Origin: Blasia pusilla
Taxonomy: Eukaryota
Direction of reading: 5' to 3'
NCBI GenBank assembly: GCA_050084515.1
Contig: CM114271.1
Span: forward strand, 28,582,001 to 28,646,000
Length of the DNA: 64,000 nt
The notes under the pieces are model-generated. The model made no database searches. It was not told the DNA's origin and saw only the letters and a list, made by a program, of their open reading frames with translations. Below, piece by piece: positions 5,790 to 43,967 of the stretch (the first letter of the stretch is position 1; each line of letters starts with the position of its first letter). A program made the translations under genes and the position numbers.

Positions 5790-6378
5790 ACATATGCTCT
5801 TCATCCTCAATACTTTCTCAACATAACCTATCACTTCTATCAATATTAAGCCATCGTCATTCCTCAATTCCTAGTCTATAAGACCCAATTCTATGTCGTG
5901 CGATAATATGATGTAAGAACGTGGAGATCCCTGCAAGTAGGTATCCTTGTTCATACTATAAAAGCATAGGATTAACATGAAGTTGATAATACCCCATTTT
6001 TATGCCCGGGCGGCTCCAAATAATGTTGAGGAATTGTTTCTGAAGATGCTCGCGGAGTGTCATTGGTTTCAGGTTCCAATCTTGTTTCGCCATATTCAAC
6101 TTTGAAGAGATAGTCACCACATCCGCAATCCACCTTATGGAATGTATGGCTCGTAAAGCTTGATGAGGGAGATGAGAAACATCAAGAGATCTCACCCTTG
6201 CGATATAAGTGATGGTCAAGTAGAAAGCTTCTTCTTCTAGAGGAAGACAACTTGTTTCCGCAAGAAGAATAGCATAAGGATTTTGGTTACACCCAATTCT
6301 TCTTGTAAAACGATCTTTTGCACCCTCTCCACGCGCTCCCAACCGGTCTTCTTACAGCTAGGGCCCCAAACTTGGGTC
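5790..6378 (-). mobile_element. 3' part of LINE ORF2, split from 15994-19520 by the Gypsy insertion
   Basis: Matches the ORF2 C-terminus of other copies (NQNPYAILLAETSCLPLE...). The sequence resumes at 15994 after a GGTC duplication. Confidence 0.9.
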
Positions 6379-6852
6379 TGTCACATCTGAGTAGCCGATA
6401 GGCCGAGATCTATCGTGGATAGGGCGTAGGAGCCAACGGACTATCTTGAGTGTAACTTTGTCCCACAGTGTCGGATGAGGTTGAGGATAGGTCCATTGTG
6501 TCAGAACGCGTCGTTTCGACGACTTTCTGTTGAGGTCTTTTACACCGGGTGACTTGTTGACCAGGTCACGCCCCTGGTAACCTGTCAGGTGCGCAGTTAC
6601 CAAGGAAGGGCTATTTTTGGGGTTTGAGCCTTTTGGCTCTTCCCAACCTATATAAGAGAGGAAGATGGCTTTCCTAAGCCATCTTTCTCATGTTGGGCCG
6701 TTGGAGCACCTCCCTTGTATGTGTGTGAGCTAGGACTAGGGTGCTAGCGTCCGGATTCCTTGATAGCACAAGGTGGACGAGGCTCGATATGCCGATGTAG
6801 ATTGAGGAGTGGAGTTTTAGGCCGGGTGTGCGTTTTGCTACTCTTTATTTTT
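6379..6852 (+). repeat. Terminal repeat A1 (promoter-bearing LTR part)
   Basis: Closely matches 15387-15855; contains TATATAAG at 6649-6656. Confidence 0.93.
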
Positions 6853-6866
6853 ACATGAGAAAGATG
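6853..6866 (+). promoter_or_regulatory. Putative self-priming primer-binding site
   Basis: ACATGAGAAAGATG is the exact reverse complement of CATCTTTCTCATGT at 6680-6693, which starts 31 nt after the start of the TATA box. There is no TGG-type tRNA PBS here. Confidence 0.75.
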
Positions 6867-8081
6867 TCGGGGTGGTGGGAATTGTTGTTTGCGGGTAGGC
6901 AAGCGTGTTGCCTCGGTTGGGGAGCCCCCGAGACGTGTGTGTGTCATTTTGTGTCATTTTTTTGTTCGAAGGCCGTGGGGAAGCGTATCCGTTTTTCGAT
7001 TTTCTTTGGTGCGATTGTTGGGGACGGCGGCGAGTGTAGCGTGTGGTGGGGCGTCGGGTGTACGCAAGTGAAGGCGTCGAAAAGAGAAGGAACGGACAAG
7101 TTGGGTCTTGCGCCGCCAGCCGGGGCTATCAAGTAAAGCGGCTAGAGTTAGGCACGGATGGCGACGGCGTGGCACGGATGGCGACGGCAGCGCGGCGGTG
7201 GGCGGGGCGCGTGCGCGATGAGCGGCCGGGCGGACCACGGCGCGCGCAGGCCTTCCTCCCCGCGCATTTAGGGCCCAAAGGGCGATAGGTCGTGGCCCAA
7301 GTTCTTCCCCCTCTTTCCGGCGTGGGTAGCACCGACAAGCGGCGGTTGGGCGATCAGTAGCGAACGTGGTAGGACGGACGAGGTCGGTCCGGCGAACGCG
7401 GTGCGCATGAGCAACGTGAGGGCAGGGAGGATGTCGACGTGCTGAGTGATCGACAAGTTGGGCAGCAGGCGTGACATGTTGTTTTGAGGCGCGCATAGGG
7501 CGTTGCGAGAGTTTACGCTGGAGGGGCAGTGTGCATGATGCCGACGGGTTGTCCGCATCTGTTGACGGGAGGATCGACGTGTTGGTCGAGGGGAGTGTTA
7601 TGTGGCGGAGATTGTCATATCATGTGGAGGAGTGCATATTGACGGTGCAGCAGGTTGGAGGGCGTGATCAGGTTACCCATTCGAGTCCCTTTTCCCGCAC
7701 TTATCGTGTGTGATTGAGAGTGTTGGGTATCGGGTATTAGCTGGTGCTAGATGGGTGCAGTGATGGTGACGAGTGTAGATTCTTTTCATGTGTAGCATGT
7801 TGGTGGATATACGGCGGTTGCCGAGTAGGGGTCGCGTGTATGACCCGAGAGAGTGTCGCTAGGTTAGGTGAGTCAGTTGGGAGGCTCATGGTGAGGCCGA
7901 GTGTTGAGCGTGCGTGAGGCCGGGTGTGTCATCACGGGATTGATGTTCGCATAGGTGAGCTAGTGAGGCGTGTGGGAGACTCTCGGTGAGTCTGAGTGCA
8001 TGAGCGGGTGAGACAGGGTTTGTCATCACGGCGTTCTTCCAGGGTTCGGAAGAACGGGGTAGTGCGAGTTGTGGTAGTGGT

Positions 8082-10500
8082 GTGACACGGAGTGGAGTGA
8101 GATATCGAGGGGTTACCAGTGAGGAGCTACCTCGACATCCATCCGTGACTGGATCGTCATCATTAGACACTGGGTCTGGTGACGAGATTGCAGACAGAGA
8201 CAGTAGTACTTGGCAGGAGATGGACGACATGGGCCATCGGGGCATGCGTCGTTTCTCGGGTGCAGTGGGCACCATCCACTTAGATGATTTCATCCAGGAG
8301 TTCGACACATGGTGCGACTTCCAGGAGATACGGACCCCCACACGGTTCAACCCTTTCATGGCATGGAAGGGGTTGTTCCAACACTTGGAGGGTCCTCCGA
8401 TGGATGACTACATGGAGTTTCGATCACTATATTCAATAGAGATCGATGCCTGGAGGATGTATTGGGCTCCAAGGTATGTGTCCACTAGTGGTCGCGAGGC
8501 ATATGATGGGATTGTGAGAGGAGAGAGACCCACACCATCAGCCCGGAGACTAGATGGAGAGGAGGACAAAGTGACACAAAGCGATGTGGCGAGACCTCTC
8601 GATGGTAGAGGGCCACCAGCCAGCCCCACAAAGTGGAGTTCTTCCGACGGTTGGGGAAGAGCTACAGGCGCATGCGCACCGACATGGTGAAGAGTCTACA
8701 GGATTTTTAGCGACGATCGGGTGAGAGTCTGAGAGAGGCATTCACACGCATGAGGAGGCTGATCATTGCTACGTTTGGAGGATCGAGTGGTGTCCGGCAC
8801 CCAAAGATTGGTACTGGGTTCGGGACCGAGAACTACGGAGGAGAGTCCGAGATGCGGTCTTTGATTCACACAACGGCCCACATTGAAGGTGGTCTTTGAG
8901 TTGTCTCGAGCGTATTGAGCTCAACATAAGTGAGGAGCAGGTAGTGACCGCTGGATTTTCTCAAGAGTCGACGGGTCCACAAGCGGCGGTGACCCCACCG
9001 GTGCCATAGCGGGCACCAGTACCACGGGAGCGGGCCAGTGTGCCTAGAGAGCGGGGCGATGGTACCGTGAGCCTATGAGGCAACGACCGCATCTACATAT
9101 GTTGCCCCAGGACCGATGTGGTCTTGTTGGGCGTGTGGAGGGGCCCATAGGCGGAGAGAGCGCCACAAGCATGGGAGAGGACCACAGCGCCTCGATTGCA
9201 CAGAGCCAGGAGAGGATGGCCCCACCACACACACAGTGTGACCATTGCCCAGATATGGTCACACTAGGGATAGATGTTTTGACCTTCGCCGAGGGCCTGG
9301 GGGCGGTCGTCCTGGAGGAGGTCGGGGAGTTCTTCTGGGCGTGGTGGTAGAGGACCACCACCGGCCAGAGGAGATGGAGCAGAGCACACAGAGCCGGCGC
9401 TTCTCGCATCGATCGGTTGAGCGGAGAGGATTGCCGCCATGACGATGATGCGGCTTAGGGAAGGCACGGAGTGCGAGCAACTAGTGTGACTCAGTCTCTA
9501 CCTCTTACCACGACCCGGTGAGGATCTCTCCAATATGGGATTCATGTGTAGTGCAGCCCAGGTTGAGGCAAAATGCGATGTGGTGACTCGGGGTGTCTGC
9601 CGAGAGGCACCGAGCCATCGAGAGGTGGAGTTGAGATTGACCCACCGAGGGGACCGATGGGCGGCAGCCGGGTTCCACATTGTTCACATTGTCGAGGCAC
9701 TACACACACCATCGATGGTGCCTCGGCGACCAACGGTGCCTACGTTCAGCACCCACGTCGACGTCACGAGGAGTTGGAGTGACAACTCCTATGCCGGCTC
9801 GAGTGGAGTCAGTGTCGACTATAGTGTTGGAGGTGGCCACTAGAGTGAGCCAGACTCCGTTATTTTCCGCCATAGAGTTGGCGACGTTGGGAGTTGGACC
9901 AGCTGAGGTGTTCCGGTTGGCCGCCACGTTGTGTGAGCGTGGAGAGATGACTCCTTCTTGTTCAGAGGTAGTTGAGGAGGTGGTGGACTTGCCCTCAGAG
10001 CCGGTGCTCGGGACGTTCCCCACAGAGTCATGGCATGCGGCGGCGGGCGGTTGGTAGATATGCCACTCGACCGGCCATAGAGCGGCGATGGTGACACTGA
10101 GTAGTGATTTGGATAACCGAAGTGGAGTATTTCGCTTGGTTAGTCCGACGGGACGGTATACCACCAGCAGTAGCGTCCTACTTGATTCGGGGCGCAACCC
10201 TTGATGTTAGGGAAGCGGCGTGTTTAGCGTTAGGGTTACGGAAGGCCGACATTGAGCCTTGTCCCTTCCGATCTGAGACCTTGATTGGGGCGTATCACCC
10301 ACTCGATATATGACTCGATAGGAGATTGTTGTCGAGTCGGCCGAGCATGTGACGGATAGTGCTATGGTACGACCGCGCGATTACGACTCGGTGAGTAAAT
10401 GCGATGTGTTGGTGGGGAATGCGAGTGTTATATCCCCTAGGATTCATCCTTGACACGGGAGGAGACCGTTGCTTATCGGCCAGGATGGCGGTCGGTGACG
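8082..10500 (+). pseudogene. gag and aspartic protease region (frameshifted)
   Basis: gag-like RRFSGAVGTIHLDDFIQEFDTWCD; Zn-knuckle remnant CDHC...HT.DRCFDL at ~9235-9290; protease motif LLDSGAQ at ~10178-10200. Confidence 0.75.
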
Positions 10501-10889
10501 TTCGGATGAGTCGATTACCCGTGCGCTTTTGCGGGGCGAGATGGTCGATCACGAGGCGAGTCTGCGACCACGTTGGCGGCTTTCACGGTAGTGTTAGTTG
10601 GCCAGGAGAGTTGTTAGAGGGGAACGACATGCGGAGGATGTCCCGAAAGCGGATAGTCCCACGGAGAGACAGGCCATGGCGGGTGTCTCTTCCCATGTTA
10701 GCAATGCCTCTTCACCATTATGGGGTACAACTCGAGAGCTGAGAGGAGTGCCGCGACCTCGTGAGGCAAAGCGGCGTGGAGTCATGTTTTTATCCCAGCA
10801 GCGTGAGAGTCACGTGGCGTCGGGCTCTTGGAGTGGAGACGATGACCCCACTAGATACCACACTGTTGTGTGGCGGTGCCTGAAGGAGG

Positions 10890-11830
10890 GTGTTAGGGTG
10901 TTAGATCTCTTTGGAGGGATTAGCACCGGATTGGCCGCAGATTGCAAAGCGGGCATACGGGTGCACCAGTACCTTTATGTGGAGAGAGATGAGACTGGCG
11001 AGTATCATTACGCCACGTGGCGAGATTGGTCGAGGTATTACGAGTTGTTGTCGGTATCTGCGATGACGGGGATACAAAGATACGCTACCCGCCGACATAT
11101 CGTTGGTGGGGCGCAGGATCTCGATAGAGTTGGCACCATTCATTTGGTGATTTGGATGGCCATGTCGGGTCATTCATCGGTGGCCGAGGATTTGGATTGC
11201 GGGGGAGGTCGGGGATGTTTTGGGAGATGCTGCGAGTAGTACGACACTTGCAGCAGAGTCAGATATGTTCTATAGCGTATATTTTGGAGAACGTGCCGTT
11301 GTTGGGAGATACTCATGCACGTGTGATGACGAGTGTACATCAGGTGAGGTCCTGGTTGGGACCGGCTGTGTTGTTAGATGCAGCGAGAGTTGGGTCACGT
11401 GCCCATCGTCCATGACTATGGTGGACGAACCTGATTCCATCAGAGGTACTGAGTCGAGCCTACAATGGAGTCCGGAGAGCACCACATCTCACGGTGGATG
11501 CTATTTTGGACTCAGGGCGTCGATCTCAAGTGGTGACACGCGATGATAGACCACCATTGGCCACGGCCAATAGGGTGGGGGAGTTGAGGGCAGCCTTACC
11601 TACGTTGGTGAGCTTCCAAGCATCCCATGCCTTTCGTCAGGGAGGGCCAGGTATGATTTGGGATGAGGTGACCAGAGTATTGGAGGAGCCTACAGCGAGA
11701 TGAGAGCGTGGAGCGCCATGGGGTTCACTACCGGTACTACTGGCGGTGCCGAGGGGATGGCGAGGCATCACGGAGACAGTGTTGGGGAGGCGGCGATGGA
11801 CCTCAAGCTGTCTCTCATATGGATAGTCAC
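10890..11830 (+). pseudogene. DNMT3-like C5 cytosine DNA methyltransferase domain inside the retrotransposon pol (frameshifted)
   Basis: Motif I VLDLFGGI (10898); motif IV GWPC(Q)GHS (11154-11176, across indels); RSGMFWEMLRV; motif VI YILENVP (~11278); motif VIII AHRP*LWWTNL (11401); motif IX/X-like ERAMGF..G.T...RRQ..G.AMD (~11700-11810). Confidence 0.88.
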
Positions 11831-12229
11831 CTAGGTATGGCGAGCGAGACGGATACGAGTGTCATCCATACCGTCACGTCCCAGTTGGACCCCGCCTCTG
11901 TGGTCTATCTGAGGCATTGGTCAAGGGGCGAGACGAGGAGAGATAGGCATCCATGGACTTCTGGGACGTCGTTCGAGCGAGAGAGAGTGCGAAGGCGGCT
12001 AGAGTAGCACATGTTCATTTTGCGAATGTGGGAGCATGGTGTAGGAGGTCATAGTGGAGTGGTACATTGCTATGGAGGTGGCTAGGGTTGCTACATAGCA
12101 ACCAAAGCCGGAGGTTGCGTCCTCTCCGAGTGAGGTCAGAATGGAGACTTGGGAGCCTGTGATAGGTCTCAAGTTGATAGGAGGAGAGCGACGGCAAGTT
12201 CATAGGTTTCTGCGAGGGAATGTCACTTG

Positions 12230-15175
12230 TTTTGCCTTCAGTATGAGAGACTTGGGTTGAAGGGTCGGGATACGGATTGAGTTGGCTAGTGATACGCCAA
12301 TCTTTCGTCGACCCTACAGGTATTCTCGATATGGAGCGAGCCTTGATTGAGCAGAGTCAAGACTTGTGGAGTTATCACATGGGGAGTATGCATCCGCCAT
12401 TCATGTCATGCGGCGAAGAAGGATATGTATGGCAATTGGACGGATAGGCAGATGTGTGGAGATTATCGTTCTATCAACCGACAGACGAGGTCAGATCAGT
12501 ATGCCATGCCTACTCTTGAGGAGATCTTTGATGCGGTAGGGCATGCAAAGATCTTGAAGACGTTAGATCTCGTCTTTGGCTATCATCGGCCTTCCTATCA
12601 GTTGGAGGACAGGAGAAGACAACATTCTGGGGATAGATCGGTTCGGGAGAGATTGCTTGTATCGATGGCGGTTCTTACCATTTGGGTTGAAGAATGCGCT
12701 CGGAGTTTCGAGAGTGATGGATAGGATTCTGGGTGGCTTGGATTTTGTACGATGTTACATAGATAATATTCTTATCTTGATTCCACGGTTGAGGAGCATG
12801 AGCGACACTTGGAGGAGGTGTTTGGCGATTGCGATTACATGGACTGAAGTTACATCCGGCAAGTGCAGATTCTTTCAGAGCAGATTGAGTACTTGGGACA
12901 CACCATATACCCGAGTGGGTTAGGCGTTCAGCAGACGAAGGTAGAGGCTATTGCGCAGATTCCACGCCCTACAGATGTGAGTCGAGTCCGAACATTTCTT
13001 GGACTGGCGAACTTCTATCGACGGTATGTCTAGGGTTTTAGTGCGATCGCAAAGTCTTTGACCTTGTTGACGAGACTTGATCAGGTGTGGTTGTGGGGAG
13101 ATGATCAGGAGCGAGCATTTCAGAGCTCAGGACGAGTTGACGTCCTCACCCATTTTCTGAGAGACCGGTTAGGGGTCGCCCATTCCAGTTACATACGGAT
13201 TGGAGCATGTTGGGTCTAGGAGGAGTGCTTACTCAGAGGGATGACGAGGAGAGGGAGTTCGTTGTGGCTTACGCGAGTTGATTGAACAACATTGCAGAGG
13301 CAAAGTACAGCTCCTATGAGGGAGAGTGCTTGGCTGCAGTGTGGGCCGTGGCACATTTTAGGTGCTATTTATTCGGCAACCCTTTCACACTTATCATTGA
13401 TCATCAGCCGTTGAGATGGTTGATGGAGTCCGACAAGCTTACGGGAAAGCTTGCCAGGTGGGCTCTATTACTACAGGAGTATGAGTTTGAGGTGGTTCAT
13501 AGGCCAGGTTGGCTGAACCAGGATGCGGATGGGTTGAGTCGTAACCCATGTCCGAGTCAGAGAGACGTCACGGGAGCTCGATGGCACGGAGAGAGTGATG
13601 AGGAGATGGTGCCCGATTGGCATGCATCTGCCTATCTTTGTTGGTTGACTATGGTAGGTCAGCCACAGGTGATGACTCAGTGGTGGGGTTGGATGATGAG
13701 TCTTTGGATCCGGAGGTCAGTGAGGAGGTGACATGTGGTCGTGATATCCATGACGACGTGGAGGTTGTGGAGTTCTTGCGCACTGGCGTCATAGCGAGCA
13801 CAGTGAGTACTAGGGAGCGGGATCGGATCCTACAGAGAGCCAAGAGGTTCAGGTGGGAGGGGACTCACATTTTGCGGGTATGGGGAGATGGTAGGATACG
13901 AGTGGTACCTCATCCTTCCCAGCAAGCACGTGTAGTGCGACATGCCCATGAGGAGTTGGGACATTTCGAGTAAAGCGTTACGACTTACTCTAGGTTCGAT
14001 ATTGGTGGCGCGGCATGCATCTTTGGGTGTTGAGCGGTTGTGGCGGATGTATGGTATGTGACAGAGTGCGAGCATCCTTCAATGCTCCCACTCAGATTAC
14101 ATCCTTTGCCGATTATGGGTTTAGGTTATCGGTGGAGTTTAGACTTTTTGCGGGACCTTTGCCATTGACATGGCGTCATCATAGGTGCGTGTTGGTCATG
14201 GTGGAGCATTTCTCCAAGTGGATAGAGTTGGTGGCACTACCGGACAAAGCGGCGAGGGAACTTATGCATTTCTAGATCGTGTGCTTAGTCACTTTGGTGC
14301 ACCGGCGGAGGTGTTGAGTGACCAGGGTACCGAGTTTAGGGGAGAGTTTCAGGCCTTGTGTGATCAGGCGCTGATAGATCACCGCACCACGTCCAGGGAT
14401 CATCCTGAGGCGGATAGATTGGCGGAGAGAGTGGTACAGACGGTGAAGAGAGGATTGCGCAAGTATGGCTTGCAGCGAGGACAGTTGAGGGAGTGGGACC
14501 TACAGTTGCCATGGTTGGCTATGGGTTATCGCTTTAGTCGGCAGGCATCCTTGGCGTCATTTTCACCATACTTTTTGCTCTTTGAGAGAGAGCCAGATTT
14601 ACCTGCAGCGATTCGACGTGACATGGCGGAGGTGTTAGATCTTGATGATCCAGATGTGTGGGTGCAAGCATGTTCTCAGAGGGCAGAAGTTTTTCGTAGA
14701 GTTATGCCAATGGCCTTTGAGAACTTAGCTATTGCCCAGCATAGAGATACATTGAGGTACGCGACCATTCGTGGAGGAGGTTATCGTCTAGGGATTAGGA
14801 GGTTTCATCCTAGAGATAACGTGTATTTACAGCCGGCGGCACCCACGACGCTAGATGTCACTGCAGGGCGCACGATCCTACGTGTGCGCGAGGTATTACC
14901 GACCGGAGTCCTCATGTTGGAGGGACGAGATGGTATGGTTTGGAAGGATCATGTGCGCAATTGTGCGCCATGTCATCTTCCGAACGTAGATGGGATGGTG
15001 GATCCAAGCTTGGCGGTGGTACTGCAAGCTTGAGGTGTATGTTGTGCGGATCACGAGAGTGCGGCCACCATGTTGGTATGTGATGGTTGTTCTCGAGGGT
15101 GGCATATGTCATGTCTGACCCCCCCCTCTTGATGTGGTTCCCACGGGACGATGGATGTGTCCGAGATGTGTATAG
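12230..15175 (+). pseudogene. RT, RNase H, integrase and PHD finger of the DNMT-bearing element (frameshifted)
   Basis: RT MCGDYRSINRQT...TLDL..GY and YIDNILI; RNase H LHTDWS...YSSYEGECLAAVWAV; integrase HAHEELGHF...CMVC and SDQGTEF...AERVVQTVK; PHD C4HC3 at 15036-15175. Confidence 0.93.
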
Positions 15176-15246
15176 GGTAGTAGGTCATGTCAGAGAGATG
15201 TGATATTTTCTATCTGGAGTTAGGAGGATCCAAGCGCCTAGAAGCG

Positions 15247-15993
15247 GTTGTGTGATCTCCATGTATATGTATGAGTTTATTTTTGTACATGTGTGGATCG
15301 ACCCGTGTGTGGGGAAGATCGGTGTTATGTGGTGTAGATGTGACGAGCGATGTATGTTGTGTAGCGATATGTATGCGCACGACAGTTGTCACATCTGAGT
15401 AGCCGATAGGCCGAGATCTATCGTGGATAGGGCGAGGAGCCGGACTATCTTGAGTGTAACTTTGTCCCCAAAGGTGTCGGATGAGGTTGAGGATAGGTCC
15501 ATTGTGTCGAACGTCATTTTTACGACTTTCATGTTTAGGTCTTTACAGTAGGGTGACTTGTCGACCAGGTCACACCCCAGTAACTGTCTTGAAAGTTACC
15601 AAGGGAAGGGCTATTTTTGGGGTTTGAGCCTTTTGGCTCTTCCCAACCTATATAAGAGAGGAAGATGGCTTTCCTAAGCCATCTTTCTCATGTTGGGTCG
15701 TTGGAGCACCTCCCTTGTATGTGTGTGAGCTAGGACTAGGGTGCTAGCGTCCGGATTCCTTGATAGCACAAGGTGGACGAGGCTCGATATGCCGATGTAG
15801 ATTGAGGAGTGGAGTTTTAGGCCGGGTGTGCCGTTTTTGCTACTCTTTATTTTTTGATGTGTGATCTCCATGTATATGTATGAGTTCATTTTTGTACATG
15901 TGTGGATCGACCCGTGTGTGGGGAAGATCGGTGTTGTGTGGTGTAGATGTGACGAGCGATGTATGTTGTGTAGCGATATGTATGCGCACGACA
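15247..15993 (+). repeat. 3' terminal repeat block B1-A2-B2
   Basis: B1 (15247-15384) and B2 (15856-15993) are near-identical 138-bp copies flanking A2; the B1/A2 junction is GACA-GT-TGTC. Confidence 0.93.
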
Positions 15994-18900
15994 GGTCCCA
16001 TGTAAGACCACCGACAACACTAAGCTCCTAAATAAGAACTTTCTAAGACCTAGGATACAAGATGAGCTCTTCTATACCGATTTAAAAATGAATATATAGC
16101 TTTGTAACGAGCTTATACTCTCTTTTGCACCCAAAGTGCCCAACTATAATCATGAGATAAATCAATGCGTAGATATTTATAACTCCTCATTTTTCTAATT
16201 GTTGAAATTTTTAAAAGAAGGAGAATTTGGATCTAGTATCCATTATAATGATTTTAGACTTCACCATATTAACCTCCATCTGATTTTGGGTACAAAAACT
16301 TGCCAAAGTGTCGAGGCGTTTTTTGAAACTAATACCATCACGTGCTAGTAATATGATATAAATAAATTTTTAATAAAAAAAGTCTCCAAGCTGGACATCT
16401 TCATTGTCACATTCTTCCAACCACTTTTCGATATCATATAGGAAAACTCCAAATAGAGTAGGGGAGAGAGGGCAACATTAAGTGACTCCGATAGTACTCA
16501 AGATCTCTTGAGTTTGTGAATCTTTGATCTTGGCTTGAATGGAATGGTACAACGTGACCACGGCAACTAGAAGATATTTTGGTACTCCAATGGCTCGCAA
16601 CCTATCCCATAAGAGCTCAGGAGATAACATATTAAAAGCTTTCTTGAAATCGATGAAACTGCAAAATAAAGCTTTTCCATTGCCCTTAGATTTCTCCCAT
16701 GAAACACGTAAGGCCAAGATATGGTCGATGGTGTTGTATGTTGTGCAAAAACCAACTTGGACTCTACTCTCTTTTGAAAAGACTCCGTCCATGCACTCAA
16801 TTTTGACTCCACCAATTTCCCAAACAGCTTGGCAAAGACACTACCCGCCATGATAGAGCGATAGTTTGTCACCAAATCCTTCCTTCCTGATTTGTGAATA
16901 GGAACAATCTCTTGTAGCGACCAAGTAGAAGGAAAACCATAGATAGCAGCATCACCCAATACTTTGGTGAGGATCGGCCCAATAGAATCTCCTTCCCACT
17001 TGAGAAGTTCAACCGAATGACCATCCAAATCCTCATATATGCCATTTTCTAATTTTCTTAGTTGAGTCATCACGTATGCTTCAGAGAATAAGCCTGGTAT
17101 GCCATCACAATGGGACATAGATGTAGCATGGGGGAAGAAATACAACTTTTCAGCAAAAGATATCAAAGACTAGGGATCAAAATAGGTTTTGAAGACCGTA
17201 CTACTAACCGTCTCCAAAATGATTTGGGGTCGTTATGGAGTTCTCTTGTTCGAAATTCCTGCTTCAGCTACAAGAAATCTTGTTTCTTAGATTTCACCAA
17301 GTGTTTGTAAAGGCTCGTCATGATAAGCCGATTTTGGAGATCCAAAGATTTTCCCATTAATCATAACCTTGCTTGCTTGCATTTAGAGTCAAACCACCCA
17401 TTACAAGGCAGCCTCCTAGCACTTCTACCCCTGTGACGGGAAAAGAACTTGGATGTAGTGTTCTTGAGCAATTTGGTTGGTTGCAAACTTGTTGTGTATT
17501 GATGAGGGCTCCATACAATGTGAGTCTAGAGTTGTTGTAAATGTAGCCTGTAAAGATTTTTTTTACGAGGATCTAATCAAAACTTGGGAGAAGCTAAAAC
17601 GGATTGACATGTTGAGAGAGGAACTTTCTTCGACAATGAGAAAGTATACAAAAGAGGCTCATGATCAGATTCAGATAGAGCTTCTAAAATTTCAAACGTA
17701 GAGATATGAGAGCTATTAGTGGGTGAGGAGAGAAGATAGTCGATGAAGCTAGCACCGGTAGAGGAGAAACATGTATTGGCCTTTTGACCCTTTGGATCCC
17801 ACAGGCTTGATCTAAAGATGCTCGCGGAGTGCCATTTACCATTTATTGGAGTGAGAGTTGGGAAAATGAGAGGTTCCATTAAGAACTTTCAAATTATAAG
17901 TGGCTCCAAAAGTTAAAAAATGCTCTATCAAAGGATTTGTAGAAAGATCTGAAGAGATTCTAGACCACAAACCATCCTCTGGTTCTTCAAGAAGAGGAGA
18001 AGTCAAGGACTCACTAAAATGGGTAAATTGAGCAGTACATGTGCGAGCATTGAAATCCCCAACTAGAAAGACTTCACCTTTGCTTTGATATTTGAGAACA
18101 TCCTCAATAAGTCGATGAAATGGTTGACTCTAACTGCAAGTACACGTTGAGTAGATAAGCATGGACAATGGTCCAAAATAACAAATTGTCAAATAACAAT
18201 AAGATCCCCCTACCAAACCAAGATGTAGCCAATGATATTGGCCCCCAATGTCTTGATCTTCTAGATGTATGAGATGTAGAAATGAAGACCTTATGAAAGT
18301 AGCAATACCGCCATAACCCCTGTTTCATGTTGCCTTCTTTTGTTCCATGTTGATCCCACCAAAGTAAACCTTTGCATCTTTACAATAGTATTGCTCTCAT
18401 GTTCCCAAGTCTCCACAATATTGATGATGTCCGCCATCTTCCAAATTGGTAGAACACTCACATACTTTGTTGTTGAAAGACGGCGTATATTCCACATGAA
18501 CACTCTCAACTTCTTGGATTCCTAGGTTGATAAGTCTCTCTTTCTATTGGTAGCAATTGCTCGACCATCGTGTATAAAAGTTATAAAACTTGCTTCTTGC
18601 GCCTCTTTGACCTTTGCAAGCTCCTTTCTGCTAGTTTCAACTTGTAAAAGTGTAAGATCATGATCCAACCATACCCTCTGTCCTTTGAGAATGGCCTTGT
18701 TATCCATGGTAGTATCACATTGAGTTTGATCAAAAAACTTAACTAGAATAGCACGAGGTTGTGTTCCCTTTTTCCTCATGCGAAAAGCTTGAGCCAATTC
18801 CAGGTTGTGAACATGAAGTGTATCAATCAAGAACTTTGTGACAACACTCTTCACCTCTTCACTCTCTATTTCTGGAAATCTTGAGATTTCACATTCTTTC

Positions 18901-22364: not shown

Positions 22365-25300
22365 AACAGGGCGTGCAGACCAACAAGTTAAAGAGTCTAC
22401 AGGATTTTCAATGAAGATCAGATGAGAGTCTAAGAGAGACGTTCATACGCATGCGGAGACTGATCATTGCAATATATGGGGTGACTAAGCTGCAGTCGGG
22501 ACCAGGAGCTATGGAGGAGAGTTTGGGATGTGATGTTGCTTCACACGCCAAAGCCCACATTAAAGATGGTCTTCGAGTTGTCAGAGCAGGTAGAGCTCAA
22601 TGTGAGTGATCGAGGAGCAGGTGATGACCACATAATTTTCATGGGATTTGACGGGTTTGCAAGTAGGAGTAGCCCCATAAGTGCTCCAGCATGCACCAGT
22701 ACAACGAGAGCGAGCCTGTGGGCCTAAAGAGTAGGGCGGGTATTGTAAGTCGCTCACACAACAGCCCGTGTCAACATATGTTACCTAGTAGGGACCAAGG
22801 TTGGCTTGTTGGACGTGTGGTGGGCCATATAGGCAGAGGAACCACCCACACCATGGTAGAGGGCCAAGGACACCTTCGATTGTTGAGGAGCCACCTCAGA
22901 TGGCCCCACCACAATTGTAGTGTGATCATTGTTTCCGATGTGGTCACACTAGGGATAGGTATTTTGATCTTCGTCGGGAGATACGTCTAGAGGCAGGCAG
23001 AGGACCTAAGGGTGAGAGAGTTGGTGGAGATTGAGTACTGGATGATCATGGTGGTAGAGTTCCATCACCAATCACAAGAGATGGAGGGAGTGCACCCGAT
23101 GCAACATTCCTTTCTCGCGTCGATTAGTTGGAGTAGAGGATTGCTACCATGATGGTCATGCAGCTAGGGACAGGCACAAAGCTGAGAGTAGCTAGTGTGG
23201 CTCCAACCCCATGTCTTACCATGATACGAGTGAGGATTCTTGTGGTATGGGATTTATGTGTAGTGCAGCTCAGGTTGAGGCTGTTGCGGAGGTCACTCGG
23301 GGTGCTGCGAGAGTAACCGCGCCATCGAGAGGTGGGATTGAGATTAACCGAGAGAAAGGGACCCATGGGCGGCAAGCCAGGGTTCCTAGTCGTTCACGTT
23401 GTTGGAGGCACTTCATATACTGTCAATTGGCGCCTCGACGACCAGTAGTACCAACGGGTGGGACAGGTATGTCGACGTTATGAGGAGTTGGAGAGACGAC
23501 TCCTATGTCAGCTTGGATGGAGCCTTTGTTGACCACATTGTTGGAGGTGGCCACTAGGATGAACCAACCTCCGTTGTTTTCTATCATAGAGTTGGCGGCA
23601 AAGGGAGTCAGACTAGCGGAGGCGTTCTGGCTGGCCACCATGTTGTGTGAGCGTGGAGAGGTGACTCCCTCTCATTCAGAGATATTTGAGGAGATGGTGG
23701 ATGTATCCTCGGATCAGGTGCTCAAGACGTCCCCCACTCAATCATGACATGTTGCGATGATAAAGTTGGTAGATATGCCAACTAGGCCAGCGATAGAGCG
23801 AGCCATGATCACAGCAAGTGTGGTATTGTTGGATAACCGAGCAAGAGTGCTTTGCTTGGTTAGTCCCATAGGTACAGTGTACCACCTACTGCGCGTACTA
23901 CTTGATTCGAGAGCGCAACTCTCGAGGTTACGGAAGGTGGTGTATTTAGCGTTGGGGTTACGGAAAGGCGACATCCAATAATGTCCCTTTCAGATATAGA
24001 CCTCTATTAGGGGCGTATCACCCACGCGGTTCATGACTCGATAGGAGTTGGTGGTTAGACTCGAGCCATAGCATGAGACAGATAGTGTGATGGTACACAC
24101 TCGGGCGATTACGACACCGACAAAGTCATATGATGTGTTGCTTGGGAGTACGGTGTTGTATTCCCTTGGTTTTATCTTGGATTTTTGGGAGGAGACAATT
24201 TCTTATCGGCCATGGTAGCAATCAGGTGATGGATGACTCGATGAGCCATCTACCGATGAAATTTGCAGGGGGTAGTGATGGTCGACCACGTGAGGATACA
24301 GTTACCACATCGGCAACATTCACAAGTGGTGTTAGTTGATCAAGAGGGTTTGAGGAGAGGAGTACACATATGGAGGACATTCCCATAGCGGATAGTCCCA
24401 CAGAGAGACATGCCAGTGTGGGTGTCTCTTCCCATGGTGCGGAGCTTCTTTATTGTTGTTAGGGATGAGCGTTGAGTTGCGTGGAGTCCAAACGAGCTCG
24501 TGAGGCAGTCGTGGAGTCATGCCTGTTTCTTGGAGCAGATAGAGTCAGGTGAAGGTCGTACTCTTGGGATGGAGACTTCATATCTTCGGGTACCATATGT
24601 GGTAGCGTTTGGAGCAGGGTAGGAGAGTGTTAGATCTCTTACGAGGGATCAACACGACAGGTACTTGCAGTGTTGCAATGTTGGAGGGACAACAACACCG
24701 ATGGTGCTAGATGTGTATAGGATAGTAGATCATGTAGGGCATATATGCGTGTGTTGTCTGGAGTTAGGGGCACCCAAATGCCAGCTAGGGGGGCGGTTGT
24801 GGGATCTTGATGTATATGAGTGAGTTAGTTTGGTTTATGGATAGATCGACCCTTGTGTTGGGAAGATTGGTATTGTGTGGTGTGTAGATGTGGGTTGTGT
24901 AGCGATGTGTTTGGGCACGACAATTGTCACATCTTAGTAGGTGATAGGTAGAGATCTATCGCAGTGACGACATAGAGAGCTGGCGGACTGTCTTGAGTGT
25001 AACTTCGTTCCGAGGTGTTGGATGAGGTTGAGGATAGGTCCATTGTGTTAGGAACGTTGTTTCTGAGAACTTTTTTATTTTGGTCGTTGTCAACCGGATG
25101 ACTTGTTGAGCAGGTCATCCACCCCCTAGTAACCTGTGCACATAGGTTACCACGAGGATTGTTAGTTTTAGGGAAAGAGCCTTTTGGTTCTTCCTACATC
25201 TATATAAGGGAGAGAGATGGCTTTCCCAAACCATCTTTCTTATGTTGGGCCGTTGGAGCACCTCTCTTGCTCGTGTGTGAGATAGGACCAAGGTGCTAGC

Positions 25301-25541
25301 GTCCAGACTCCCTCATCGCGGAGGGTGGATGAGGCTCGATATGTCGATGTCGATTGAACAGTGGAGTTTTAGGTCGGGTGTGCCATTTTCACTCTTATTT
25401 TTGTTGTGGGATCTCGATGTATATGTGTGAGTTTGTTTGGTTTATGGATGGATCAACCAGTGTGATGGGAAGATCGGTGTTGTGTGGTGTGTAGATGTGA
25501 CCAACGATGTGGGTTGTGTAGCAATGTATATGCGCAAGACA
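22365..25541 (+). mobile_element. Second, diverged, 5'-truncated and internally deleted copy of the DNMT-Gypsy family
   Basis: Colinear with 8665-10930 (gag, protease VLLDSRAQ, MTase motif I start RVLDL at ~24625). It then jumps to a PPT-like AGGGGGGCG and B1 24796-24922, A2 24925-25402, B2 25403-25541. Confidence 0.9.
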
Positions 25542-40186: not shown

Positions 40187-42365
40187 TGCCACGTTATAGA
40201 GGCATACCAGGCTTATTCTTTGAAGAAGAGGTGATGACTCAACTAAGAAGATTAGCAAATGACAAATACAAGGATTTGGATGGTCTTTCTGTTAAACTTC
40301 TCAAGTGGGAAGGAGATTCTATTGCACCGATCCTCACCAAAGTATTAGGTGATGCTGTTGTCTATGGGTTTTCTTCTACTTGGTTGCTACGGGAGATTGT
40401 TCCTATTCACAAATCAAGAAGGAAGGATTTGGTGACAAACTATCGCACTATCATGGTAGGTAGTGTCTTTGCCAAGCTGTTTGGGAAATTGGTGGAGTCA
40501 AAGTTGAGCGCATGGACAGAGTCTTTCCAAAAGAAAGCACGGGTCCAAGCTGGTTTTTGCCCAACATACAACACCATTAACCATATCTTGGTCTTACGTG
40601 TTTTATGGGAGAAATCTAAGGGCAATGGAAAAGCTTTGTTTTGCGGTTTTATCGATTTCAAGAAAGCTTTGGATACCGTACCTCGTAAGCTCTTATGTGA
40701 TAGGCTGCAAGCCATTGGGATACCATCAAATCTCCTCGTTGTCGTGGCCATGTTGTGCCATTTTTTTTGGGCCAACATCCAAGATTCACAAACTCAAGAG
40801 ATCTTGAGTACTATCGGAGTCATTCAAGGTTGCCCTCTCTCCCCTACACTTTTTGGAGTTTTCATAGATGATAATGAAAAGCGGTTGGAGGAATGTGATA
40901 GTAAAGGTCTCAAGCTTGGAGACTTTGTCATCAAAGCTCTATTGTATGCCGATGATATCATATTACTAGCATATGATGGCATTAGTTTACAAAAATACCT
41001 CGACACTTTGGCAAGTTTTTGTACCCTGAATCAGATGGAGGTCAATATGGAGAAGTCTAAAGTCATTATAGTGGGTACTAGATCCAAGTTCTCGTTCTTT
41101 TACAAAGGTCTACAATTAAAACAAGTGAAGAGTTACAAATATCTAGGCATTGATTTCTCTCATGACTATAGTTGGGCACTTTGCGTGCAAAAAAGAGTAG
41201 AAGTTGGTTACAAAGCTCTATATTCATTTCAAGATTGGTGAAGAATAACTCATCTTGTATCGTGGGGTCTTCAAAAGTTCTTGTTTAGGAGTTTAGTGTT
41301 GCTTGTGGTCTTATATGGGACCCAAGTTTGGGACCCTAATTGTAAGAAGATAGATTTGGAGCGCGTAGAGAGGGTGCAAAAGATCTTTCTACAAGAAGAA
41401 TTGGATGTAAGAAACCAAACTCCTTATGCTAGAGGCTAAAGCTCTCTACTTGACCATCACTTATATCGAAAGGGTGAGATTTCTTGATGTTTCTCGTCTC
41501 CCTCATCAAGCTTTTCGAGCCACATGTTCCATAGGGTGGATTTCAGATGTGGTGACTTGATCGCCACATTTGCAAATCGGCAAACAGGTTTGGAAAGATC
41601 CAGCATCACACTAGAGTTATCTTTCAACCCCTTCTTCAAAACCTCCTACGTTGCCTTCAACTCTCGCATAGGTTCAATTGAGAAGTTTGTACCTTGAATT
41701 TTTGTGGATGCTCTTTCAATTCATGCAAGCACACGTTTCATGGGGTGGATTGCGGATGTGGTGACTTGGTCTTCAAAGTGGAATGTGGTGGAACGAGATT
41801 GGGACTTAAAACTTATGGCACTCCGCGAACATCTACAGAAGTAATTTCTCAATATCATTTGGAGCAGTGCGGGCACAAAAATGGAGTATTATCAGCTTCA
41901 TATTAATCCTATGCTTGTATATTATGAACAAGGATGCCTACTTGCGGAGATCTCCACGTTCTTATCTCATATTATCACACGACATAGAAGTGGGTCTCAT
42001 AGGCTAGAAAATGAGGAAGGACGATGGCTTAGTATTGATAGAAGTGAACGAATCTGTAAGTTATGTGACGGAGAGAGTATTGAGGATGAAGAGCATGTGT
42101 TTGTTACATGTCCAAGGTATGAAGAGATTTGACTAGCTCATAAAATAAATTTGGAGAATTTCTATTCTTTACTACAGCTAGTGCCTTATGATTTAGGTTA
42201 TTAGATGAGGGATATCATTATTCATCGCTCAAGTGCTCTAGGAAATAGCTAAGAGAAGGTCTTTAGGATCTTTTTTCGGGTGAGTGAATGAATGATTTGT
42301 GATGTGTTTTTAAGCCTTTTGACCCTTTGGGTCCCACGGGCTTGATATATTGACGATTTATCATT
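40186..42365 (+). mobile_element. 5'-truncated LINE, RT (40186-41241) to 3' end, with an inverted ORF1 fragment at ~41575-41730
   Basis: 351-aa RT ORF; C-terminal RICKLC...EDEEH...CPRY; family terminus at ~42315-42365. Confidence 0.92.
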
Positions 42366-42367
42366 AT

Positions 42368-43967
42368 TGCGAGTTTGGGAGAATAGTAGAATACACGTAA
42401 TGCCTCATCCTTTTGAGAGAGCATGTTTGGTGCAACATGCCCATGAGAAGTTGAGTCACTTATGAGTGAGGCAGACCTACAACTTGCTACAGATATAGTA
42501 TTCGTGGTGAGACATGCTGATTAATGTTCAACAGTTTATCCCCAAATGCATTGTGTGTGACCAAGTTTGGGCATCGTTCAATGCTCTTTGACTCTACACT
42601 TGAAGCCATTTCCAATCATAGGTTTAGATTATAGATAGAGTTTGGATTTTGCAAGATCTCTACCTTTGACGTGTTGCCATAATTGTTATGTGGTGGTGAT
42701 GATCGAACACTTCTCGAATTGGCAGTGTTGACAAATCAGGGTAGGGAGTTTTTTCGGGAGTTTCAAACCTTGTGTGATCAGGCATTGATTGACCATTATA
42801 CTCCTTCGCAAGATCACCTTGAGACAGATGGATTAGCGGAGAGAGTTGTGGATACAGTGAAGAGAGTTTTACGCAAGTATAGCTTGTAGAGAGGTCACTT
42901 AGGAGATTAGGACCACAATTAATCAAAAAAATGCAACCATGGTTGAATTGCCAACCATATTGGTTGACGATTGGATATGGATTTAGCAAGAAAGTATCCT
43001 TAGCATCTTTCTCACCATAGTTTTTGCATTATGGACGAGAGCCTGATTTTCCTGCGGTCATTTTTTGCGATGTTGGTGAGGTGTTGAACCTCGATGACCC
43101 TGATATATGGATGCAAGCATATTCTTAGAAGGCTGAGTTTTTTCGGAGAGTTATGCCCATGACATTTGAGAACTTGGAGATTAGGCAACATCGTGATACT
43201 TTGAGGTATGCAACTATTCGGGGAGGTGGTTATCGACCAACGATCCAGAGGTTTCATCAATAGACGATACCTACGACGTTATATGTGACTGCAAGGCACA
43301 CCATCTTGAAAGTGTGTGATGTCTTGACATCTGATGTTCCGTTCATTACTGTATCCTCGCCCGAGTACACCCGGAATTGTGGGCCTGGTGTGGAGAGACG
43401 CAAAGGTATGATTTGGAAGGATCATGTGCGTAATTGTGTGTTATTTCACCTTCCTAACATTGAAGATACAATTGATCCGAGCTTAGCAGTAGTTCTTGCA
43501 AGCTTTCATTGTATGTTGTATGGTCTTTCCCTAGTGCAGCCAAGATGCTAGTCTATGATGGGTGTTCAAGAGGATAGCACATGGCACATCTGACGCGAGC
43601 CCTCACTAGGCTTCTTCGTGGATGATGGATGTATCCCAGATGTACATAAGGTAGATACTAAGTAGTTTTAGATCCATATTTTTGTGTGTTACGTAGATGA
43701 CAAGAAGGCGAAAACAATGGGGTCATATGAGCATCCGCCATTTTTACTCTTAGCATCTTAGAGATGTACGGCATGGTAGGTAGGGATAGATAGCTATTTA
43801 GAGTTAGAGGGACCTAACTACCAGCTAGGGAGGCGATTGGATATATTTTGGTACTCGATTTTCTTGATGTTTTGATGTCATTAATTAGCATGGTATCTTG
43901 TGTGTTTGTATGTGTATTTGGTGACAAACATGTATATTATATAGCGATGGGTATGCCCATGACAATT
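42368..43967 (+). mobile_element. Third, older fragment of the PHD-integrase Gypsy family (integrase, degenerate PHD, PPT, B repeat)
   Basis: Colinear with 13870-15390 (HAHEKLSH, DGLAERVVDTVKR, WKDHVRNC); PHD remnant ~43510-43650; CTAGGGAGGCG; ends GACAATT at 43961-43967. Confidence 0.82.

What the first reader, a model, noticed from the sequence alone, without database searches (positions are those of the whole stretch)
6379..15993. Integrated system: Gypsy retrotransposon with a methylation writer, a chromatin reader, self-priming and permuted termini
Seen: one TSD-bounded element combines a DNMT3-like domain, an integrase-linked PHD finger, a self-complementary priming site and A...B-A-B ends. 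Two other diverged copies in the window share subsets of these, so it is a family. Inference: a retrotransposon that is independent of host tRNA, may methylate its own cDNA or target, reads histone marks and integrates through a circle. I do not know of this combination being described in a land plant.
Basis: partly seen in the sequence, partly recalled or inferred. Interest (0 to 1): 0.95.

Follow-up and report, generated by a model that had tools for sequence, protein, structure and literature searches.

The report
Decayed methyltransferase-carrying Gypsy retrotransposon, bryophyte lineage
This is a dead copy of a jumping gene that carries its own DNA-methylating enzyme and a histone-reading finger and has oddly rearranged end repeats; the type was published for a freshwater alga and is here shown to be common in liverworts and mosses.

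Summary
All parts of the observation hold. Window 6379-15993 is one insertion with TG...CA ends, a 4-bp target duplication (GGTC) and paralogous empty sites. Its repeats are A1...B1-A2-B2. Its domain order is PR, DNMT3-like methyltransferase, RT, RNase H, integrase, PHD. Just after A1 lies a 14-nt site perfectly complementary to the predicted RNA 5' end, about 30 nt after the TATA box.

The copy is dead: at least 12 in-frame stops, at least 6 frame changes, and the catalytic Pro-Cys is lost.

It is not a chimera. Two independent TSD-bounded metagenome elements (L018, L034) repeat the repeat layout, the methyltransferase and the priming site; L018's one ORF holds integrase core and PHD. L032 shows gag-to-integrase in one frame, and P0058 has DNMT-to-PHD in one ORF.

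The kind is published: KnitGypsy-Dnmt3 of Klebsormidium nitens (de Mendoza 2018), a Gypsy with DNMT3 and "A-coding-B-A-B" repeats. Self-priming is also already predicted for plant Tcn1 elements.

Added here: members in Marchantia, Calypogeia, Riccia and Sphagnum; the integrase-PHD fusion; and the anatomy. PPT and PBS bound B-A, while integrase ends lie at an internal palindromic B|A junction (GACAGCTGTC). The provirus is thus a circular permutation of the canonical reverse transcript. Integration through a circle is plausible but unproven.

The parts
6375..6378 (.). left copy of the 4-bp target-site duplication GGTC
   Evidence: paralogous empty sites carry a single GGTC
6379..6852 (+). repeat A1. 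It starts with TG. It holds a TATA box at 6649-6654 and the predicted RNA 5' end (anti-PBS) at 6680-6693.
6853..6866 (+). self-priming primer-binding site ACATGAGAAAGATG, 14/14 complementary to 6680-6693
   Evidence: 0 of 2000 shuffles reach it. In one search the MFE and centroid folds pair RNA nt 1-14 with nt 174-187.
6867..9754 (+). leader plus presumed gag region. No domain was recognised here; the ORF 8004-8690 is unassigned.
   Evidence: nothing significant. DNA read depth is lowest at 6868-7535.
9755..10625 (+). aspartic protease region, broken across two frames
   Evidence: tblastn to P0003, P0015 and P0019
10847..11730 (+). DNMT3-like C5 cytosine methyltransferase domain with motifs I, IV, VI, VIII, IX, X in unpermuted order. 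There is a frameshift near 11152-11215 and one stop. The motif IV Pro-Cys is lost.
12135..13126 (+). reverse transcriptase, broken
13150..13650 (+). RNase H
   Evidence: (PF17917, 74 bits)
13659..15033 (+). integrase (H2C2 zinc finger and DDE core), broken across three frames
15034..15171 (+). PHD finger remnant, in frame with integrase, with 2 stops
   Evidence: The intact counterpart is seen in L018 (PF00628, 34 bits) and P0058.
15240..15247 (+). degenerate polypurine tract AGAAGCGG directly upstream of B1. The intact form AGGGGGGCG(A)G is seen in copy 2 and the metagenome relatives.
15248..15384 (+). repeat B1, ending in CA
15385..15386 (+). 2-nt spacer (GT here) of the internal CA-NN-TG junction. 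The commonest form in reads of the source species is GC, which gives the palindrome GACAGCTGTC.
15387..15854 (+). repeat A2
15857..15993 (+). repeat B2, ending in CA, the right terminus of the element. The A2|B2 junction equals the U5 end joined to the U3 start.
15994..15997 (.). right copy of the target-site duplication GGTC
22366..25541 (+). copy 2 of the family: 5'-truncated and internally deleted. It keeps the protease region and a B-A-B 3' end (B 24798-24892, A 24925-25402, B 25403-25541).
42364..43646 (+). copy 3 of the family: an integrase plus PHD fragment

Best explanation
A decayed, once integrase-inserted copy of a Ty3/Gypsy LTR retrotransposon. It belongs to the 'Gypsy-DNMT3' kind first described as KnitGypsy-Dnmt3 in Klebsormidium nitens, here in a bryophyte (probably liverwort) lineage.

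Shown:
- Domain order PR-DNMT3-RT-RH-INT-PHD.
- TG...CA ends and a 4-bp TSD.
- Split direct repeats A...B-A-B.
- A PBS complementary to the predicted RNA 5' end.
- A purine tract directly upstream of B1.

Inferred mechanism:
1. RNA starts about 30 nt after the TATA box in A.
2. Its first 11-14 nt fold back onto the PBS and prime minus-strand synthesis, as in Tf1, without a tRNA.
3. Because the PPT precedes B and the PBS follows A, the LTR made by reverse transcription is B-A.
4. The integrated copy is a circular permutation of that product. Integrase uses the pre-formed internal CA-GC-TG palindrome at the B|A boundary as its two ends, most simply by opening a two-LTR circle or tandem-LTR intermediate.
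5. The A2|B2 joint is the U5-end/U3-start joint of that intermediate.

In intact relatives the DNMT3 domain presumably methylates cytosines (cDNA or target). The PHD presumably tethers integrase to histone H3 tails. Neither activity is shown.
For: One element: TSD and empty sites. The same layout with 4-bp TSDs occurs in independent elements L018 (CATA) and L034 (AAGG). L018 carries the DNMT, plus integrase core and PHD in one ORF. L032 has gag(CCHC)-DNMT-RT-RH-INT in one frame with only 2 stops. P0058 has DNMT-RT-RH-INT-PHD in one ORF.

Family link: the integrase ORF hits K. nitens KFL_009030040 (P0106, E 3.7e-62), which has PR-DNMT-RT-RH-INT. The DNMT motifs align.

DNMT3 type: all 29 PDB matches of P0001 are DNMT3A, 3B or 3C.

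PHD: 115 of the 120 listed integrase relatives carry PF00628.

Self-priming: window 14/14; L031 and L034 14/14 with a different sequence at the same distance from the TATA box; L005 13/14; L011 12/14. Both folds pair the 5' end with the PBS.

PPT: AGGGGGGCG(A)G, or a variant with one or two substitutions, lies directly upstream of B1 in 9 of 11 relatives and in copy 2.

Junctions: A|B equals the U5 end plus GTTGTG (the U3 start) in 4 of the 6 A|B junctions printed (W_c2, L018, L034, L028, allowing single transitions). W_c1 deviates by 1-2 changes; L024 carries extra PBS/PPT-derived letters. B|A is CA-NN-TG in 6 of 6. In DNA reads of the source species the spacer is GC in 188 reads, AC in 82, GT in 30 and AT in 9.

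Termini: none of 10 family 5' ends has B upstream of A1, so B-start and A-end are never used as ends. Reads show diverse flanks at 6379 and 15993 (agreement 0.33).

Precedent: the K. nitens repeat layout (PMC5890265, passages); integrase cleavage of palindromic LTR-LTR junctions (PMC1905944 and PMC1180852, listing and abstract starts only).
Against: This copy cannot work: at least 12 in-frame stops inside the aligned stretches, at least 6 frame changes, and motif IV reads AMS instead of PCQ.

No circle, no RNA 5' end and no polyA site was observed. RNA reads are few (260, 320 and 290), mostly 95-99% alike, so they come from sister copies. They barely touch the DNMT region.

The PBS match is weak (10-11 of 14, not above shuffles) in L008, L010, L018, L024 and L027, which are decayed copies.

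A plain two-LTR circle cut at either B|A site should also give A-B-A-int-B. None was seen, though only 4 complete-type elements bear on this (4 versus 0, not decisive).

Many copies are A-int-B only, with a TSD: L011 and L024 certainly, L010 with 3 of 4 TSD bases. This form could be a primary product or a B1/B2 recombination product.

The window's PPT is degenerate. A1/A2 differences cluster in the middle of A, so some post-insertion conversion is possible.

The K. nitens DNMT showed no activity in yeast; the authors called this inconclusive.
Confidence: 0.85

Rival explanations
1. Same element and family, but the A...B-A-B provirus is made without any circle. Reverse transcriptase would build a linear cDNA with A-start and B-end termini by extra template switches between the repeated A and B segments. 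This is the kind of model proposed for DIRS/PAT/Ngaro elements. Integrase would then insert it in the ordinary way.
For: The repeat layout is that of DIRS-type elements (PMC5890265, passages). The title and abstract start of PMC7192593 (listing only) report linear single-stranded cDNA intermediates for DIRS-1. No A-B-A-int-B permutation was seen among 10 family 5' ends.
Against: I could not derive a switch series from the PBS/PPT positions that puts B downstream of A2. The A|B joint is exactly the U5 end plus the U3 start, as blunt joining would give. The internal B|A palindrome looks like an integrase site.
Confidence: 0.3
2. The features come from different nested or recombined elements. For example, a DNMT gene fragment or a second element may have been inserted into an ordinary Gypsy. 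The combination would then be an accident of this locus.
For: The copy is heavily broken. DNA read depth differs about 5-fold between the DNMT region (76-143) and RT-INT (about 450). Many relatives in the database show RT-RH-INT-PHD without DNMT.
Against: The same collinear order occurs in L032 (one frame), P0058 (one ORF), P0106 of K. nitens, and the TSD-bounded L018 and L034. No internal TSDs or extra termini were found.
Confidence: 0.03
3. An ordinary LTR element with LTR = A (or A+B), in which the extra B is a post-insertion duplication or deletion peculiar to this copy.
For: A1 and A2 look like plain LTRs with a PBS after A1. A-int-B forms show that rearrangements between the repeats can occur.
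Against: B-A-B 3' ends recur in window copy 2, L018, L034, L028 and L005 (the last cut by the locus end), and in K. nitens according to the paper. The TSD encloses A1 to B2. The PPT precedes B1, not A2.
Confidence: 0.03
4. A DIRS-order element that moves by a tyrosine recombinase.
For: The split direct repeats, and a methyltransferase in Pol as in DIRS elements.
Against: No recombinase was found in any ORF. A DDE integrase is present, with TG...CA ends and 4-bp TSDs in 5 elements.
Confidence: 0.02

Closest known systems
KnitGypsy-Dnmt3 of Klebsormidium nitens (de Mendoza et al. 2018, PMC5890265; passages and section 10 read, supplements not seen)
   Same: A Ty3/Gypsy domain set with an unpermuted DNMT3-type domain inside Pol. 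In the K. nitens protein P0106 the DNMT sits between PR and RT, as here. Repeats are A-coding-B-A-B. The integrase and DNMT are sequence relatives.
   Different: The host is a bryophyte, not a charophyte alga. Three things are documented here and not mentioned in that paper's main text (PHD and chromodomain: 0 occurrences): the integrase-PHD fusion, the self-priming PBS, and the PPT/PBS-versus-termini permutation. This copy is dead. The paper placed the acquisition 'in the K. nitens lineage'; the bryophyte members argue for an older or transferred origin.
DIRS-order elements with split direct repeats (PAT/Ngaro types; SymbioDIRS-Dnmt3)
   Same: A1-internal-B1-A2-B2 repeat layout. Some carry a methyltransferase in Pol.
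   Different: Those use a tyrosine recombinase and make no TSD. This element has a DDE integrase, TG...CA ends and 4-bp TSDs, and no recombinase was found.
Tf1/sushi group and plant Tcn1 chromoviruses (PMC6317226, passages; the original Tf1 work is recalled, not read)
   Same: The RNA 5' end is complementary to the PBS, giving tRNA-independent self-priming. A chromatin-reader module sits at the integrase C-terminus.
   Different: Those elements carry a chromodomain where this one has a PHD, have conventional LTRs and lack a DNMT. Phylogenetic relation was not tested.
PHD-bearing Gypsy elements of green algae (REM1 of Chlamydomonas, Perez-Alegre 2005: cited in a PMC8557442 passage, details recalled; database relatives from Pleodorina, Tetrabaena, Haematococcus)
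   Same: Integrase followed by a PHD finger. The integrases are 45-50% identical.
   Different: Most listed relatives show no DNMT (10 of 120 carry PF00145). In some, the DNMT sits between RNase H and integrase instead (P0078, P0081, P0090).
Cellular DNMT3A/3B
   Same: Best solved-structure matches (E 1.7e-7). Motif order I-IV-VI-VIII-IX-X, not the DRM permutation.
   Different: No PWWP or ADD modules were seen. The domain is embedded in a retrotransposon polyprotein. About 25-30% identity only.
Integrase cleavage of palindromic LTR-LTR junctions of retroviral 2-LTR circles (PMC1905944, PMC1180852; listing and abstract starts only)
   Same: A CA...TG palindrome that integrase can cut to give integration-competent ends.
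   Different: In retroviruses the palindrome is made by ligating the two LTR ends. Here it is a standing internal sequence of each B-A unit, and the ligation-type joint is A|B.

Membership tests
Ty3/Gypsy LTR retrotransposon | Pol order PR-RT-RH-INT | tested here: met
   (with DNMT inserted between PR and RT)
Ty3/Gypsy LTR retrotransposon | TG...CA termini and a 4-5 bp target duplication made by a DDE integrase | tested here: met
   4-bp TSDs also occur in L011, L018, L024 and L034.
Ty3/Gypsy LTR retrotransposon | two identical-at-birth LTRs directly bounding PBS and PPT | tested here: not met
   The repeats are A...B-A-B. The PBS follows A1, but the PPT precedes B1, not A2. This is a permuted variant.
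Gypsy-DNMT3 (KnitGypsy-Dnmt3 kind) | unpermuted DNMT3-type domain within the Pol frame of a Gypsy element | tested here: met
Gypsy-DNMT3 (KnitGypsy-Dnmt3 kind) | A-coding-B-A-B repeats | tested here: met
   The K. nitens layout was taken from the PMC5890265 Fig. 4 legend only.
Gypsy-DNMT3 (KnitGypsy-Dnmt3 kind) | sequence relatedness to the K. nitens elements | tested here: met
   P0106: integrase E 3.7e-62; DNMT aligned at 33% identity to P0001. No tree was made.
Gypsy-DNMT3 (KnitGypsy-Dnmt3 kind) | conserved catalytic residues of the DNMT | tested here: not met
   In this copy PCQ is replaced and a stop is present. The feature is met in the relatives P0001, P0019, P0058 and P0106.
DIRS order | tyrosine recombinase | tested here: not met
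   No hit in any ORF of either strand or in L018 and L032.
DIRS order | no target-site duplication | tested here: not met
   4-bp TSDs
Tf1/sushi-type self-priming elements | RNA 5' end complementary to the PBS next to the LTR | tested here: met
   The RNA start itself is predicted from the TATA box, not measured.
Tf1/sushi-type self-priming elements | phylogenetic placement in Tf1/sushi/Tcn1; chromodomain | not tested
   No REXdb or GyDB references were at hand. The C-terminal module is a PHD, not a chromodomain.
PHD finger (PF00628) | Cys4-His-Cys3 zinc-binding pattern | tested here: inconclusive
   The window remnant has lost cysteines and has 2 stops. The pattern is intact in L018 (34.2 bits), P0058, P0042 and P0045.

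The most novel reading that the evidence does not exclude
A lineage of integrase-bearing Ty3/Gypsy elements spans charophytes and bryophytes, with relatives in chlorophytes. Its provirus is an obligate circular permutation of its reverse transcript. Integrase opens a two-LTR-circle or tandem-LTR intermediate at a standing internal palindrome (GACAGCTGTC), so that B ends up downstream of A2. There B could act as a terminator element that the 5' A lacks. The element also brings its own DNMT3 and an H3-tail-reading PHD to set or choose its chromatin state.
Probability: 0.35. Interest if true: 0.8.

Novelty: new member of a known kind. Interest (0 to 1): 0.5.

Why it matters
The published view is that a Gypsy element captured DNMT3 'in the K. 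nitens lineage'. Here the same kind turns up in liverworts and mosses. Gene models in Marchantia polymorpha, Calypogeia fissa, Riccia sorocarpa and four Sphagnum species are fragments of it. Some are annotated as DNA (cytosine-5)-methyltransferase or PHD-type proteins, and these could be mistaken for host epigenetic genes.

In the source species the family is high-copy and weakly transcribed at family level.

The anatomy poses a concrete question: how does a DDE integrase produce an A...B-A-B provirus? Marchantia is a genetically tractable plant, so retrotransposon-encoded methylation, PHD-guided targeting and circle-mediated integration could be tested there.

Tried and rejected
- Whole-genome search of the source: no genome is held.
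- Pfam on the window's own DNMT fragments: nothing. PDB search with them gave only E 0.11-0.8. The domain became clear only through relatives.
A 5-protein alignment worked. L046-L080 of that scan are weak (24-34% identity) and were not used.
- gag: the window ORF 8004-8690 shows no similarity to the L018 ORF and has no Pfam hit. gag is therefore unconfirmed in this copy.
- dN/dS on the DNMT was abandoned. Only 1 of 26 extracted DNMT stretches was full length (1188 nt) with no stop. Among the 17 extracts whose length is a multiple of 3, 16 carry 1-6 stops; the other 9 also lose the frame, so their higher stop counts partly reflect that.
- Expression: no RNA holder was listed by the index. Raw RNA reads laid at 95% mostly come from sister copies, so nothing can be said about this copy.
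- Earlier scan notes: none for this genome. One note from another genome is cited below.
- No RT/INT phylogeny against REXdb or GyDB was possible, and no tree was built.
- Not done: structure prediction, complex prediction, atlas search. Sequence evidence sufficed.
- Supplements of PMC5890265 (element structure, catalytic alignment) could not be seen. They may already show a PHD or PBS.

Full report
**What is there**

Window 6001-16000 stands out by composition. GC is 0.50-0.57 against about 0.40 around it, and G exceeds C on the + strand by a skew of about 0.25.

Self-comparison shows four repeats: A1 6379-6852, A2 15387-15854 (92.9% over 481 columns), B1 15248-15384 and B2 15857-15993 (98.5% over 137 nt).

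The element begins TGTCAC and ends CGACA, and GGTC flanks it on both sides. It sits inside another repeat of which the window holds at least five more copies. Those copies read straight through with a single GGTC-type site, so they act as empty sites.

**Coding content**

All frames are broken. Stop-to-stop ORFs give RT_RNaseH (74 bits), plus RVT_1 and rve hits below their cut-offs. They give nothing for the methyltransferase.

Relatives make the picture clear.
- The 213-aa fragment 10598-11239 finds P0001 (E 9e-17) and a Sphagnum troendelagicum protein annotated as a cytosine methyltransferase. A full scan finds 36 representatives.
- tblastn of P0001 covers 10847-11664 in two frames, E 2.6e-76.
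- Motifs I, VI, VIII, IX and X are readable in DNMT3 order. Motif IV has lost its Pro-Cys.
- All 29 solved-structure matches of P0001 are DNMT3A, 3B or 3C.
- The integrase ORF 14185-15033 finds 180 relatives. Of the 120 listed, 115 carry a PHD finger and 10 carry PF00145.
- The window keeps a PHD remnant in the integrase frame at 15034-15171, with two stops.
- From PR to PHD I count at least 12 in-frame stops inside aligned stretches and at least 6 frame changes. The copy is dead.

**One element or a mosaic?**

It fails to refute.
- A metagenome scan with a DNMT alignment returned 45 close loci. By their nearest named proteins these are probably Sphagnum-like moss DNA.
- L018 and L034 are complete, TSD-bounded (CATA, AAGG) elements with A...B-A-B repeats and the DNMT.
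- One ORF of L018 holds integrase core and PHD.
- L032 has gag (CCHC), DNMT (49 bits), RT, RNase H and integrase in a single frame with two stops.
- P0058 has DNMT-RT-RH-INT-PHD in one ORF. K. nitens P0106 has PR-DNMT-RT-RH-INT.
- No tyrosine recombinase or other enzyme was found on either strand.

**Priming**

Directly after A1, 6853-6866 is the exact reverse complement of 6680-6693. That site starts 31 nt after the TATA box, where transcription should begin. No shuffle of 2000 reached 14/14.

The moss lineage uses a different sequence (CTCAAAGAACTATG) with the same geometry, 28 nt after TATAAA. Matches there are 14/14 in L031 and L034, 13/14 in L005 and 12/14 in L011. Five more decayed copies score only 10-11/14, not above shuffles.

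Both RNA folds close the leader by pairing the 5' end with the PBS. No TGG-type tRNA site abuts A.

This is the Tf1 type of self-priming. It has already been predicted for 12% of plant LTR elements, notably Tcn1 of mosses (PMC6317226, passages).

**Termini**

A purine tract, AGGGGGGCG(A)G, lies directly upstream of B1 in copy 2 of the window. It or a variant with one or two substitutions is there in 9 of 11 moss loci. It is degenerate (AGAAGCGG) in copy 1.

So the landmarks of reverse transcription bound B-A, whereas the integrase ends are the start of A and the end of B.
- The A2|B2 joint is the U5 end joined to the U3 start (GTTGTG...) in 4 of the 6 A|B junctions printed (copy 2, L018, L034, L028, allowing single transitions). 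Copy 1 deviates by 1-2 changes, and L024 carries extra PBS/PPT-derived letters.
- The internal B1|A2 joint is CA-NN-TG in 6 of 6.
- In DNA reads of the source species the spacer is GC in 188 reads, AC in 82, GT in 30 and AT in 9. The GC form makes the 10-bp palindrome GACAGCTGTC. The variants are single transitions at CHG-type cytosines.
- None of 10 family 5' ends has B before A1.
- Reads show many different flanks at 6379 and at 15993 (agreement 0.33).

The integrated form is therefore a circular permutation of the canonical B-A...B-A reverse transcript. The simplest route is a two-LTR circle or tandem-LTR intermediate opened by integrase at one B|A palindrome. Retroviral integrases are reported to cut palindromic LTR-LTR junctions (PMC1905944, PMC1180852; listing and abstract starts only).

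Caveats:
- No circle was observed.
- The other permutation (A-B-A-int-B) was not seen, though only four complete-type elements bear on it.
- Several loci are A-int-B with a TSD (L011 TTCA, L024 CACA, L010 with 3 of 4 bases). These may be primary products of one-LTR circles or B1/B2 recombinants.
- A DIRS-like template-switch route remains a rival.

**Comparison with what is known**

De Mendoza et al. 2018 (PMC5890265; passages and section 10 read, supplements closed) describe KnitGypsy-Dnmt3. It has DNMT3 in the Pol of a Gypsy element, with repeats "the same as that of a DIRS retrotransposon" (A-coding-B-A-B). The DNMT is under purifying selection and showed no detectable activity in yeast, which the authors called inconclusive.

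Later texts still speak of "streptophytes (Gypsy-DNMT3)" with that citation (PMC12344493; bioRxiv 10.64898/2026.05.21.726589; passages). My searches found no report for land plants.

The databases do hold fragments of this family as gene models:
- Marchantia polymorpha: Mp_7g09570, AXG93_3217s1680 and others.
- Calypogeia fissa and Riccia sorocarpa.
- Sphagnum tenellum, S. troendelagicum, S. jensenii and S. balticum.
No vascular plant appears among the named hits.

The PHD of a family member matches best the PHDs of KMT2C/D, CHD4, WSTF, KDM5A/B, DPF2/3, ATXR5, PHF21A, UHRF1 and AIRE. From memory these mostly read unmodified H3K4, so binding to unmethylated H3 tails is my guess, untested.

**State in the source species**

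DNA reads at 95% likeness or better pile up to about 450-550 on A and on RT-INT. Depth is 76-143 on the DNMT and 18-50 on the leader. The family is therefore abundant, and DNMT-bearing close relatives are a minority of it.

RNA reads are few and mostly sense. They lie on A, RT-INT and the 3' end, and 4-6 reads per run cross the B|A joint. They come from sister copies.

**Verdict**

The kind is known, so this is a new (bryophyte) member. It brings three added points (PHD fusion, self-priming, permuted anatomy) and an open mechanistic question.

Noticed in passing
database proteins P0078, P0081, P0090 versus P0058, P0106 and the window: The methyltransferase sits at two different places in related PHD-Gypsy polyproteins: PR-DNMT-RT, and RT-RH-DNMT-INT. 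The two DNMT versions are 36% identical over 336 aa (E 8e-54), far closer to each other than to DNMT3A. This suggests one capture that was later moved within Pol.
   Followed up: partly
L011 (=L041), L024 (=L021), L010; also L009, L020, L025, L036: Family copies of the form A-internal-B, without A2-B2. They are bounded by 4-bp duplications (TTCA, CACA; 3 of 4 bases in L010). They may be products of one-LTR circles or of B1/B2 recombination.
   Followed up: partly
window 6379-15993; L018, L034, L032: G exceeds C on the coding strand by a skew of 0.17-0.26 in all family members. CpG observed/expected is 0.90 in the window element against 0.51 in the rest of the window. Unexplained.
   Followed up: no
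window 6425-6600 versus 15433-15600: A1/A2 differences and indels cluster in the middle of A, while the first 48 nt are identical and the last 250 nt about 99% identical. Reads show a variant middle segment in other copies (joint 6504 to 15522). Gene conversion is possible.
   Followed up: no
window 20355-21237 (-), 37275-37827, 38970-39640, 40805-41875 (-), 45606-46212, and the flanks 6003-6378 / 15994-16500: The element is inserted in another repeat family with at least six copies in this window (80-90% alike). That family was not identified.
   Followed up: no
window 5179-5725: Three tandem copies of a unit of about 180 nt (75-78% alike), just upstream of the insertion.
   Followed up: no
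window 13935-13966: About 1700-2000 DNA reads and 33-49 RNA reads per run match only this 30-nt stretch and continue into unrelated sequence on both sides. It is a short segment shared with another abundant, transcribed repeat.
   Followed up: no
L024 13693-13712: The A|B joint of this copy contains the first 9 nt of the PBS and a piece of the pre-PPT sequence between A and B, as if almost the whole interior had been deleted from an A-PBS...PPT-B unit.
   Followed up: no
P0046 (Mp_7g09570), P0205, P0003, P0176: Public gene models in Marchantia and Sphagnum named PHD-type or DNA (cytosine-5)-methyltransferase proteins are fragments of this retrotransposon family. They could inflate counts of host epigenetic genes.
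   Followed up: partly
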